Assembly: GCA_965649205.1 (NCBI GenBank)
Contig: CBFGJV010000008.1
Coordinates: forward strand, 29,479-93,478
Source of the DNA: a candidate division WOR-3 bacterium
GTDB taxonomy: Bacteria > Hydrothermota > Tepidihabitantia > Tepidihabitantales > Tepidihabitantaceae
Reading direction: 5' to 3'
DNA: 64,000 bases
Numbering within the stretch: the stretch's first letter is position 1; every line of letters starts with the position of its first letter. Position numbers: made by a program. Positions 48,001 to 51,000 of this stretch are shown here, piece after piece.

Positions 48001-51000
48001 TGGCTCGTACAGGAAAAATCCCAGTTCTCCACGCAGGTCCGCGTAGCGCAGGTTAAGGTCCAGCTTGTCTTCTAGTTGAGTGGCCCAGGTATCTTGCGTT
48101 ACCCAGAGTTCAACTCGGTTTGCGCCCTGCACAGAAAGTTCTGCCGCAGCCAGCGGTAGAAATGTCAAGAGCAGACTGCAGGTCAGAAGCCGGTAGGATA
48201 GGACGGCAGGTGCAAACTGGCTCGTGTGCCTATTCTCCTTTTGTTTTCGCGCCGGAGGTGTCGGGCTTAACCGGCGGCAGCCACTTTAGGAACTCTTCCT
48301 TTATACGTTTTTCGTCGCCCTTTTTGTACCCTATATGAGTATAGACAATTTTGCCTTCCATATTGATAAGAAAAGCGGTAGGCTTTATGATAATGCCGTA
48401 GGCAGACTTTACTTTCTGCTGTTGGTCCAGAAGCACGATGTAGGGCCACTTTTTTGCTTTCACAAATGCTTTTACCCGTGCTTCATCCGCGGGTTTGTCC
48501 ACAGACAGAGCGACTATCTGCAGTCCCCGGTCTTTCAGCGAATCGTATATGGGCAGCAGGGCGTCAAGCTCGGCGATACAGTTTACACAGGGGAGGTCCC
48601 AGCATTCCATATACACCGGTCCTTTCACCAAAAGGCTTTCTAGCGTTACTTCGACGCCGCTGATGTCTTTGAGGGTGAAACGGGGAGCGGTTTCGTATTT
48701 CTTTTCGGATGAAGCGGTTGCCAATACGACAAATGTCAAAAGACAGGAAATCAGAACAACCTTACATAGCTGTCTCATTTTTCCTCCTAATGTTGGAAAC
48801 GGTGTACCGTTAAGGATTGTACAATACTGGAATCCTTCATATCTTGAATGAACACGGCCGCCCCCAGCCGTGCCGGATTGCAGCCCGTGATGTTGAAACG
48901 GAAAGTATCGTATAGCGTGTCTCCGCGAGATAGATTGATTCTCCGCCCGGCGTAGTCGGGCAGAACGCGACGCGCCACCCGGTCCCAGACCAGGGGGAAC
49001 CGTCCCTGCGTAGCCAGGCTGTCTTCGGTAACTATGACCACCAGGCGCAGGTCTGCGTTTGGAGCAATGGAATCGGTTGTAGTTCTTATTACCAGCAGAC
49101 CGGTCAGAGTGTCGGCGTAAGTGCTTTCTACAGCCAGAGAAGTGAAGGTGGGGCGGGACTTGGCTACATCAATGTTGTCGGCAAAAACTGCGGCGTACTG
49201 ATTGGGCGCATACAGGTCCAGATTAACTGTGGGTTTGGCGTCGAGATAGAGCATCTTAGGAGGGGAGCGACGGGCGCTGTCTTCGGGCAGTACCGCAAAT
49301 CTACCTACGGGTAGAAAAATTACCACCGGCATAGCCGAGTCGTAGCGGAAAGCGGAAAGGCTGTCCAGTGCCCGCGCCGCGAGCACGCAATATCCTCAAG
49401 TGGTGTCACGAAAGTTTATCTCGGCCAGTACGTTCCGGCTGGTTTCCTGAACCGGTATTATGGGGGCATCTGAGCAGGTTAAAGCCCCCAGGAGAAACAG
49501 TGCAGCCGCATATGGTACCCGTGTCATCATCATATCATAGAACTAGGTCATACACTGTCAAGCACGCCTGTCTCCGATTATCCTGGGAAGTTACCAGAAT
49601 GCATAAAACCTGAGCCCCGAGGCGTGCAGAAGGCCAATTAGTTAGGAAAGCAGGACACCAATGTTATAAGTTCTTGAGGGGCAATACCTGTAAGTCGCTA
49701 CCCCCCCTGTCGAGGGGACTGCTGGGGGAGTCGTTCCCCCCACCAAGAGCGGGGTATAGGTTACCATTATTAAGGTATGGGTTACATTCTTCGGGTCTCG
49801 GATAGACTTTTGGCATGTGGCATCATTTCATACTGCAGAGGCGTTGCTCTGCAATTTCTGAACGTTTCGCTAATCGGACACGCCGTATAGGTCGACAAGC
49901 TCCAGAATAATTGCTCGGCTGCAGAAGGTCCGGTCTGAGGCGCCGGTTGTTGACTGACAGTTCGCTCGGTCCTGTAGGTTGGTGTCATTTAGCCAGCTTT
50001 ATGATTTGCAGGCAACTACTGTCTAGTGCGTGCCTGTCTTCTCTGATTTTGACGAATTATGGATTCGCGCCAATACCCAGATATTCCTGATTGTGTCTAA
50101 GGTCGCAGGAGTTTTATTATCCGGGTCGGTTCTTTGTCCGGCTGAAGCTCGCAGTAGTACACACCACTGGGAAGCTGGCCGATGTCGTACCTGATCGTGT
50201 GCAACCCTTTGCATAAGTCCCGGTCAATCAGGGTGAACAAATTCCGTCCCGAGATATCGGTTACGCGCAGCCGCACGCGCTGGGGGCAAGAGAGGGAGAA
50301 GTGCAGGATGACTACGTGCTGGCAAGGATTGGGAACGCCGAAATGGGTACAAGGCGAACCTTTACGCAGGCCTACGGTCTCGCTAACGCCGACAAAACCG
50401 TTTGTGTCGGTCTTTATGACCGAGAAGTCGGCATTGCCTAGGGTCAGGCTGTCCCAAGAGTTTGCGTCGCGCCAGCCGGCAATGACTATTCCGTTGTCGG
50501 CGGTAAGTATGATGGCAGAGGGGTCGTCATTCAGCGGGCCCCCGTACCATCTTGTCCAGAGCGTGTCGCCGGTACCATTCAGTCTGAGCAGCCACCAGTT
50601 GTCATAACCCATCCCTGGTGGTGCATAGGTCTGGGAATAGGCGGCAAGGTAGTAGCCACTGCTGCGGCTTTCGACAATACTGGTTCCTCCCTCATATCTG
50701 CCTCTGGTGCCAATGGTCTTTGTCCATTCCGTGTCAGCGCGGGAATCCAGTTTCATAACCCAGATGTCCCGGCTTGGAAATACATCGTTGCGGCTTCTCT
50801 GACCTGCAACTATCCATCCGCCGTCTTTTGTTCTTTGGGGTCGGCTGAGTGTTGTCAGGCTATCCTCGCGGAATGACATCACTTTTTGCAGGTTGCCGAA
50901 CGTATCAATCACAAGATAACTGCCAAAGCCCATGTAAGCCGGAGGAAACGGCCATTCGCCGGTGCAACTAAATGCGGTCATCAGATAGGCGCCGTCTCCG

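What a model noticed while it worked through the whole genome (the two positions that open the first line are those of the whole stretch)
48787..49533. Omp28-like lipoprotein with T-T-U-G-Y-C selenocysteine motif next to a ResA-like redoxin
g00763 was called 49 codons too short: the frame runs on upstream through a TGA to an ATG at C8:79011, giving a 248-aa protein with a lipoprotein-type signal (LGALTC) and the motif F-x-D-T-T-U-G-Y-C. I read it as an outer-membrane or periplasmic selenolipoprotein that works with the neighbouring ResA-like redoxin g00762. New would be a Sec/non-Sec alternating lipoprotein family distantly like Omp28.
Evidence so far: Calls 15,26: upstream extension. Call 19: hairpin GUGCUCGC-GGC-GCGGGCAC 12 nt behind UGA. 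Call 44 (66 genomes, E<1e-10): 66 matches listed, 36 with one TGA and 30 without, often both in one genome. Call 51: motif TTUGYC in 4 of 4 orthologues. Call 27: weak Omp28 hit (1.2e-4, 22.4 bits, cut 34.9).
(Added by a program. Inside this text positions count along the whole contig: contig position 29,479 is position 1 of the stretch shown here. "Call 12" and the like, gene names such as g00115 and contig names such as C1 are that model's own, and its searches are not shown. The text may have been shortened before it was handed on; [...] marks where a part breaks off. The agent that wrote the report below was given it as the finding of a first reader that could run no searches.)

Follow-up and report, generated by a model that had tools for sequence, protein, structure and literature searches.

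The report
Two-selenoprotein envelope redox operon
The apparent stop codon in this gene encodes selenocysteine at the active site of a thioredoxin-like lipoprotein, which heads a conserved five-gene operon that also holds a second, unannotated tiny selenoprotein and may pass reducing power from the inner membrane to the cell surface.

Summary
The TGA almost certainly encodes selenocysteine. The genome has selA/B/C/D, and the hairpin fits the published bacterial SECIS model. U-G-Y-C is the UxxC active site of a thioredoxin-plus-Ig fold matching HBP35 (Z 21.9). In 97 operon loci from this phylum (WOR-3 by database labels), Omp28-like domains were 57 UxxC and 1 CxxC where selA was found, and 0 UxxC and 51 CxxC where it was not.

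Two corrections. Omp28-related selenoproteins are already known (GOS_C, NCBIfam NF045500), although this lipoprotein branch does not reach that model. The TGA-less copies found beside TGA copies in one genome are CxxC paralogues in another operon.

What I add: the gene leads an operon with TlpA, a plug-less DUF6029 barrel carrying an invariant C-x4-C, a missed 45-aa CD1871A-like UxxC selenoprotein (46703-46566) and a 4Fe-4S membrane protein. The most likely function is an envelope-spanning disulfide-reducing relay; this is inferred, not shown. The scan earlier noted the TlpA-barrel-GOS_C core in Marinimicrobia.

The parts
49534..49561 (-). Near-consensus sigma-70 promoter (TTGACA-16-TATGAT) abutting the start; probably a leaderless transcript
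   Evidence: 11 of 12 consensus matches; same arrangement in 36 of 42 orthologous loci; start site inferred, not measured
48787..49533 (-). Omp28/HBP35-like selenolipoprotein, thioredoxin domain plus Ig-like domain; 248 aa from the first ATG, probably 246 aa from ATG 49527
49474..49476 (-). Putative lipidated Cys (C-S-x-A-P) ending the signal peptide
   Evidence: present in 42 of 43 orthologues; Lgt and LspA in the genome; no signal-peptide predictor was available
49396..49398 (-). Sec codon 1 (UGA), first position of U-G-Y-C
   Evidence: column is C or U in 51 of 51 aligned rows and aligns with HBP35 W-C-G-Y-C
49368..49386 (-). bSECIS 1: 8-bp stem, GGC loop, 17 nt after UGA
   Evidence: 94% of cells paired in 40 distinct orthologues versus 24-54% with slid partners; changes on both sides at several pairs
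48230..48778 (-). TlpA/ResA-like exported redoxin, W-D-L-P-C-V-N-C
   Evidence: Pfam AhpC-TSA and Redoxin above cut-off; CxxC, no Sec, in 23 of 23 copies
46705..48168 (-). DUF6029 outer-membrane beta-barrel, about 24 strands, no plug (true start may lie a little upstream)
   Evidence: PF19494 66.6 bits, cut-off 27; model pLDDT 95; best fold matches are the FimD and PapC usher pores, Z 20.0 and 18.7
46759..46776 (-). C-S-G-G-V-C hairpin in the last loop of the barrel
   Evidence: both Cys invariant in 79 of 79 aligned barrels; C-x4-C in 94 of 97 loci, the other 3 matches end before the motif
46566..46703 (-). Unannotated 45-aa single-helix membrane selenoprotein, CD1871A-like, ending I-U-L-S-C-M-G-L-V
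   Evidence: NF040920 25.8 bits, cut-off 32; U in 19 and C in 32 barrel-locus genomes
46590..46592 (-). Sec codon 2 (UGA)
46562..46578 (-). bSECIS 2: loop CGUGU, 17 nt after UGA; the stem spans the gene's own TAG stop
   Evidence: hairpin of -5 kcal/mol or stronger in 18 of 19 TGA forms versus 1 of 37 Cys forms
45269..46549 (-). Polytopic membrane protein of the Fer4_5/NapH-like type with two C-terminal 4Fe-4S motifs and two C-x3-C-P motifs (start at GTG 46549 inferred)
   Evidence: order barrel > mini-protein > Fer4 in 49 of 97 loci

Best explanation
The gene encodes a lipid-anchored selenoenzyme of the Omp28/HBP35 fold whose U-x-x-C acts like a thioredoxin active site, with Sec as the attacking residue. 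It is the outermost member of an operon-encoded reducing chain. Electrons would enter through the 4Fe-4S membrane protein and its small UxxC partner (N-terminus inside, UxxC outside the inner membrane), pass to the periplasmic TlpA, and reach the lipoprotein directly or through the C-x4-C loop of the DUF6029 barrel; the lipoprotein then reduces or rearranges disulfides of envelope or surface proteins. Shown computationally: Sec decoding signals, fold, active-site position, gene order, invariant Cys pairs. Inferred: lipidation, location, direction of electron flow, contacts, substrate. My odds: Sec reading about 0.96; thiol-disulfide oxidoreductase about 0.9; the operon acting as one relay about 0.55.
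For: Sec machinery above cut-off: selA, selB, selD (itself with one TGA), tRNA-Sec. SECIS-type hairpin of -5 kcal/mol or stronger in 52 of 57 TGA forms versus 5 of 51 Cys forms. In all 97 barrel loci of 201 genomes, UxxC occurs only where selA was found. Model matches HBP35 over 212 residues, rmsd 2.6 A, Z 21.9; the thioredoxin-type Pro is nearly invariant. HBP35 has Cys-dependent thioredoxin activity in vitro (PMC2907840, abstract). All five genes carry conserved Cys/Sec motifs, and the full order is kept in 41 of 97 loci. In 80 metagenome loci the Omp28 domains were 64 U, 1 C, 10 without N-terminus.
Against: No experiment shows Se incorporation or activity. The mini-protein and Fer4 genes follow the barrel in only 49 of 97 loci, and in only 2 of 34 genomes without selA, so they are not a fixed part of the core. 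The genome has a DsbD/CcdA membrane domain elsewhere that could feed TlpA instead. In 18 of 61 selA-positive barrel genomes no Sec Omp28 was seen in the fetched stretch (several contigs end early). The barrel's Cys pair could be a plain structural disulfide. selA-positive genomes are mostly one class, so the Sec/selA table is not a set of independent events. The -3 to -1 residues before the lipid Cys are not a classical lipobox.
Confidence: 0.55

Rival explanations
1. Uptake system: the lipoprotein is a lid on the barrel that binds or reductively frees a ligand (heme, a metal, a cofactor), as proposed for HBP35.
For: HBP35 binds hemin and its loss slows growth at low hemin (PMC2907840 abstract). 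The barrel is large and open. lipA and an MFS gene each recur in 14 of the 41 regions clustered, all of them Sec-type loci.
Against: The barrel model has no plug domain. The His found after the second strand in most relatives is absent in this protein. Among the neighbour families scanned against Pfam (26 representatives) no TonB-system gene appeared.
Confidence: 0.18
2. Export pore with folding helpers: the barrel exports or anchors a protein or polymer, and TlpA plus the selenolipoprotein keep the barrel or its cargo correctly disulfide-bonded; no electrons cross the outer membrane.
For: Closest folds are usher translocation pores. DUF6029 was linked by HHpred to Wzi-like barrels near polysaccharide export genes (PMC9603273, passages). 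Secreted Omp28-domain proteins with C-terminal tails often lie in the same loci.
Against: Fold matches among large barrels reflect size (7-15% identity, rmsd above 4 A). No polysaccharide export family appeared among the 26 neighbour representatives scanned. It does not explain the second selenoprotein or the Fe-S protein.
Confidence: 0.22
3. The TGA is a real stop: the gene is broken, or the 199-aa downstream ORF is the product.
For: Databases list only the short form; a GTG lies 12 nt after the start of the TGA.
Against: TGA at the same column in 43 genomes, with a covarying hairpin, conserved signal peptide and promoter; TGA forms were not seen in any of 34 barrel genomes without selA. The short form would lack the export signal and the active site.
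Confidence: 0.02
4. Genome-wide recoding of TGA (Trp or Gly).
For: None beyond the in-frame TGA itself.
Against: TGA is the commonest stop (472 of 1107 open frames of 300 codons or more; median 16 codons to the next stop). The column holds Cys, not Trp or Gly, in homologues.
Confidence: 0.01

Closest known systems
Omp28-related selenoprotein, NCBIfam NF045500 = hypothetical protein GOS_C (PMC2398784; Table 1 of PMC13188914)
   Same: Omp28-like thioredoxin-fold domain with UxxC, Sec and Cys homologues, predicted thiol redox role; 44 of 51 aligned family members hit the model at E<=0.01.
   Different: This protein gives no hit at E<=10 and the genome none. Seven Sec-lipoprotein orthologues that hit score 17-46 bits against a cut-off of 200. 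The model has 377 positions; this is a 246-248 aa lipoprotein with no tail.
Porphyromonas gingivalis HBP35 (PDB 5Y1A) and Omp28 (PF11551, NF033782, PDB 2R2C)
   Same: Thioredoxin plus Ig-like architecture (Z 21.9 and 12.4); C-G-Y-C aligns with U-G-Y-C. In P. gingivalis Omp28 is PG2173 and a thioredoxin-domain protein is PG2175 (PMC13744359 passages).
   Different: Sec instead of the first Cys; 11% identity; below family cut-offs; lipid anchor instead of HBP35's secretion tail. That PG2174 is a DUF6029 barrel is recalled and was not checked.
CD1871A family CXXC protein (NF040920) beside a Fer4_5 4Fe-4S membrane protein
   Same: Small single-helix protein with a terminal CxxCxG; match over 37 of 38 model positions; directly upstream of the Fe-S gene.
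   Different: UxxC with a SECIS that overlaps the stop codon; 25.8 bits, below the cut-off of 32. No such family is named in the 119-entry table, and no paper holds the term.
DsbD/CcdA-TlpA(ResA) periplasmic reducing pathways and the MtrAB porin-cytochrome conduit (from general knowledge)
   Same: A membrane electron donor feeding a periplasmic thioredoxin; a large plug-less barrel as a possible outer-membrane crossing (MtrB complex matches at Z 15.8).
   Different: The donor here would be an Fe-S protein with a Sec peptide, and the crossing would use thiols, not hemes. Neither is shown.

Membership tests
Bacterial selenoprotein (lipoprotein gene) | In-frame UGA at a position holding Cys in homologues | tested here: met
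Bacterial selenoprotein (lipoprotein gene) | bSECIS: loop 3-9 nt, G in first two loop positions, 16-37 nt spacing, stem 4-16 bp, energy <= -7.5 | tested here: met
   model from PMC13188914 section 5; GGC loop, 17 nt, 8 bp, -11.7 kcal/mol for the isolated hairpin
Bacterial selenoprotein (lipoprotein gene) | selA, selB, selC, selD in the genome | tested here: met
   all above curated cut-offs
Bacterial selenoprotein (both genes) | Selenium found in the protein | not testable with these tools
   needs 75Se labelling or mass spectrometry
Bacterial selenoprotein (45-aa gene) | UGA/Cys alternation, bSECIS and machinery | tested here: met
   U in 19 genomes, all with selA; C in 32; hairpin in 18 of 19 versus 1 of 37; -8.0 kcal/mol in this window
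NF045500 Omp28_seleno (GOS_C) | HMM score of 200 bits or more | tested here: not met
   no hit for this protein; best of 23 proteins scanned 95.4 bits; 0 of 5 genomes over cut-off
NF045500 Omp28_seleno (GOS_C) | Thioredoxin-like fold with UxxC | tested here: met
   definition from PMC2398784 passages
Omp28 (PF11551 / NF033782) | Score above cut-off (34.9 / 150 bits) | tested here: not met
   22.4 bits; no NF033782 hit, relatives up to 66.5 bits
Omp28/HBP35 fold | Thioredoxin domain followed by the Omp28 Ig-like domain | tested here: met
   Foldseek E 1.6e-9, TM 0.71; Z 21.9, rmsd 2.6 A, 212 residues
Bacterial lipoprotein | Signal peptide ending in a conserved Cys, processed by Lgt/LspA | tested here: inconclusive
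   Cys conserved in 42 of 43, enzymes present, but lipobox atypical and no predictor run
CD1871A family (NF040920) | HMM score of 32 bits or more | tested here: not met
   25.8 bits, E 7.3e-6
DUF6029 (PF19494) | Score of 27 bits or more | tested here: met
   66.6 bits
HBP35-type heme acquisition protein | Hemin binding | not testable with these tools
   needs a binding assay

The most novel reading that the evidence does not exclude
The five genes form a complete selenium-assisted thiol wire across a Gram-negative envelope: an Fe-S membrane protein reduces a 45-residue UxxC peptide, which reduces TlpA, which passes electrons through the invariant Cys hairpin of a plug-less 24-strand barrel to a surface selenolipoprotein seated on or in that barrel. 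It would be a heme-free counterpart of the MtrAB conduit and a replacement for DsbD, and would give a function to DUF6029, the Omp28 family and the CD1871A family at once.
Probability: 0.25. Interest if true: 0.85.

Novelty: new variant of a known kind. Interest (0 to 1): 0.6.

Why it matters
First, it adds two selenoproteins that current models miss: an Omp28-like lipoprotein branch (43 genomes here) and a CD1871A-like UxxC mini-protein (19 genomes) whose SECIS runs over its own stop codon. Annotation truncates the first and omits the second. Second, Sec in place of Cys marks these residues as redox-active, which is evidence about the function of the Cys-form Omp28 and CD1871A families in cultured bacteria. 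Third, the invariant Cys pair of DUF6029 makes one open question testable: whether bacteria pass thiol-reducing power across the outer membrane to surface enzymes such as HBP35.

Tried and rejected
The scan of named genomes with the single protein returned 6 weak, partial matches in gut Firmicutes (E 2e-5 to 5e-4, residues 54-130); I treated them as chance and dropped them. No plasmid holds the barrel. Rfam found only one tRNA in the window, so no riboswitch at the gathering threshold. No sequencing run was listed, which is no evidence on expression. A complex prediction of barrel with lipoprotein was never run, so there is no verdict on binding. No language-model look-alike search result is available for this protein. 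One origin of Sec for all 52 Sec domains among 102 rows was rejected (p-AU 0.015, quick tree); I ran the test after seeing the tree, the careful search did not finish, and the R-C-x-Y-C paralogues outside barrel loci were not in the tree. The third 190-260 aa gene in the paralogous operon is not a truncated selenoprotein: it has its own signal peptide. Literature: omp28 + selenoprotein 0 papers; CD1871A 0; DUF6029 1 paper; further searches. Omp28 and CD1871A were not found in BSepDB (main text and its one held supplement), deep-Sep main text or the Haft and Gwadz preprint main text (supplements not seen). Haft and Tolstoy 2025 (PMC12013261) could not be read and may bear on novelty. The PorA paper does not describe the Omp28 locus under the terms searched.

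Full report
Observation. Reading TGA as Sec gives one 248-aa frame at 49533-48787 with D-T-T-U-G-Y-C; the standard code gives a 199-aa ORF from GTG 49386, and all 14 database relatives are 177-205 aa. The genome (2.15 Mb, 98% complete) has selA, selB, selD and tRNA-Sec above cut-off and uses TGA as its commonest stop (472 of 1107 long frames), so this is not general recoding. It holds one copy of the family. Labels on barrel homologues name candidate division WOR-3.

SECIS. The published model asks for a 3-9 nt loop with G in the first two places, often followed by G or U, 16-37 nt after UGA (PMC13188914 section 5). The hairpin has a GGC loop at 17 nt and 8 pairs. My hairpin test (isolated stem-loop energy) reached -5 kcal/mol in 52 of 57 TGA forms and 5 of 51 Cys forms, and -7.5 in 38 and 2; among 4000 random TGAs 11% and 3.6% did. 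Across 40 distinct orthologous sequences the eight pairs are 94% paired, against 24-54% with slid partners, with changes on both sides at several pairs; random synonymous re-encoding gave the window's stem in 0.4% of trials. A few orthologues have weak stems. This genome's selD has a hairpin of the same kind.

Protein. In a 51-row alignment the U/C and C columns are invariant and the thioredoxin-type Pro nearly so. Its profile finds HBP35, Atu2684, thioredoxins and Omp28 among solved structures. The model (pLDDT 86.8) matches HBP35 at Foldseek E 1.6e-9 and Z 21.9, rmsd 2.6 A, 212 residues. The domain is widespread: 20526 cluster representatives at E<=0.001. A C-S-x-A-P after a hydrophobic leader is kept in 42 of 43 orthologues. 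A near-consensus promoter ends at 49534, and 36 of 42 loci place an in-frame ATG 5-9 nt behind the -10 box, so I infer a leaderless message starting at ATG 49527.

Sec versus Cys. The protein matches 87 of 201 phylum genomes. I fetched 20 of the TGA matches and 20 of the TGA-less matches. All 20 TGA-less lipoproteins have CxxC, 19 of them as R-C-x-x-C, and 19 of those 20 stretches hold no barrel: they are paralogues beside a roughly 600-aa or 340-aa Omp28 protein. To test the operon itself I searched the barrel (95 of 201 genomes, 97 matches) and selA (67 of 201) and examined all 97 barrel loci. In 61 genomes with selA the Omp28 domains were 57 UxxC (43 genomes), 1 CxxC and 3 partial; in 34 without a selA match they were 51 CxxC (31 genomes), 0 UxxC and 5 partial or motif-less. 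Fetched stretches differ in length and some contigs end early; kin are not independent. In a quick tree of 102 domains the 42 Sec lipoproteins group with 8 Cys lipoproteins from selA-negative genomes (SH-aLRT 99); other Sec forms fall elsewhere, and one clade for all 52 Sec forms was rejected (p-AU 0.015, tested after seeing the tree). The best 80 of 305 metagenome loci repeat the pattern (64 U, 1 C, 10 without N-terminus) and may overlap these genomes.

Operon. Downstream lie TlpA (CxxC in 23 of 23), a DUF6029 protein, a gap, and a Fer4_5 membrane protein with two 4Fe-4S motifs. The gap holds a 45-aa ORF (46703-46566) with one hydrophobic helix and a terminal U-L-S-C-M-G. It matches CD1871A (NF040920) below cut-off. 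It has U in 19 barrel-locus genomes, all with selA, and C in 32; the hairpin is present in 18 of 19 U forms and 1 of 37 C forms. In metagenome loci it was 54 U and 22 C. The barrel models at pLDDT 95 as about 24 strands without a plug, with two Cys on a hairpin in the last loop; both are invariant in the 79 barrels I aligned of 89 full-length ones. Its nearest folds are usher pores, which shows size class only. The five-gene order holds in 41 of 97 loci, barrel > mini-protein > Fer4 in 49, and a TlpA is present in 89.

Mechanism. Every gene carries a conserved Cys or Sec pair, and their predicted locations run from inner membrane to surface. I therefore favour a reducing relay ending in the selenolipoprotein (0.55). 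HBP35 has Cys-dependent thioredoxin activity and binds hemin (PMC2907840, abstract only), which supports the chemistry and also feeds the uptake rival. Against the relay: the Fe-S pair is attached in only half of the loci, a DsbD/CcdA domain exists elsewhere in the genome, and no contact has been shown. That the last loop faces outward or into the lumen follows from general outer-membrane barrel topology, not from a call. The idea of reducing power crossing the outer membrane also appears in an earlier scan note on Marinimicrobia, which I did not test there.

Known versus new. NCBIfam holds NF045500, 'Omp28-related selenoprotein', which the 2026 review lists as GOS_C with UxxC (Table 1); GOS_C was described in 2008 as a thioredoxin-fold UxxC protein of unknown function (PMC2398784 passages). 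So the kind is known. This protein does not hit that model and its orthologues score far below the cut-off, so it works like GOS_C but is not filed as a member. The review's table of 119 entries names no CD1871A-like selenoprotein, and its operon section names no such operon; searches are listed under Tried and rejected, and one key paper (PMC12013261) and preprint supplements were not available. Earlier scan notes report CD1871A-like selenoproteins in other genomes, two of them with a different tail motif.

Papers seen: PMC13188914 (abstract, sections 5 and 9, parts 1-2 of 3 of section 7, passages); PMC2398784, PMC9603273, PMC13744359, PMC13326102 and bioRxiv 2022.07.06.499078 (passages; one supplement of PMC13326102 searched); PMC2907840 (abstract); PMC7712824 and PMC12013277 (term searches, no hits).

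Verdict. Observation confirmed, interpretation partly supported, new variant of a known kind. Interest 0.6, carried by the second selenoprotein and the testable envelope relay more than by the lipoprotein alone.

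Noticed in passing
window 46566-46703 (-): Unannotated 45-aa CD1871A-like UxxC selenoprotein whose SECIS spans its own TAG stop.
   Followed up: yes
L078, L079, L081, L083, L084, L087 (upstream of the long Omp28 gene): A second copy of the mini-gene heads the paralogous Cys-Omp28 operon; 3 of 6 examined have U, 3 have C.
   Followed up: partly
L062:12524, L068:34-648, L075:9641-11483 and others: A separate clade of secreted, non-lipoprotein Omp28 domains with Sec (E-G-U-G-S-C type) and about 105-aa tails, near the same operon; not found in this genome.
   Followed up: partly
L078-L095: The paralogous Cys-Omp28 operon sits with a ferredoxin-thioredoxin reductase subunit, a corrinoid protein, a URO-D family protein, HGD-D and BadF ATPase genes and an AIRS-fold protein.
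   Followed up: no
window 49534-49561 and 41529-41556 (-): Near-perfect sigma-70 promoters close to start codons; leaderless initiation may be common in this lineage.
   Followed up: partly
window 41593-45314 (-): lipA and two paralogous MFS genes follow the operon; lipA and one MFS gene recur in 14 of 41 regions each; link unexplained.
   Followed up: no
window 50097-51689 (-): Upstream beta-propeller-like repeat protein with a weak type IX secretion tail match.
   Followed up: no
L097:7827-8222 (+): Sec version of the canonical Omp28 motif (T-A-T-W-U-G-F-C) in another family of the phylum.
   Followed up: no
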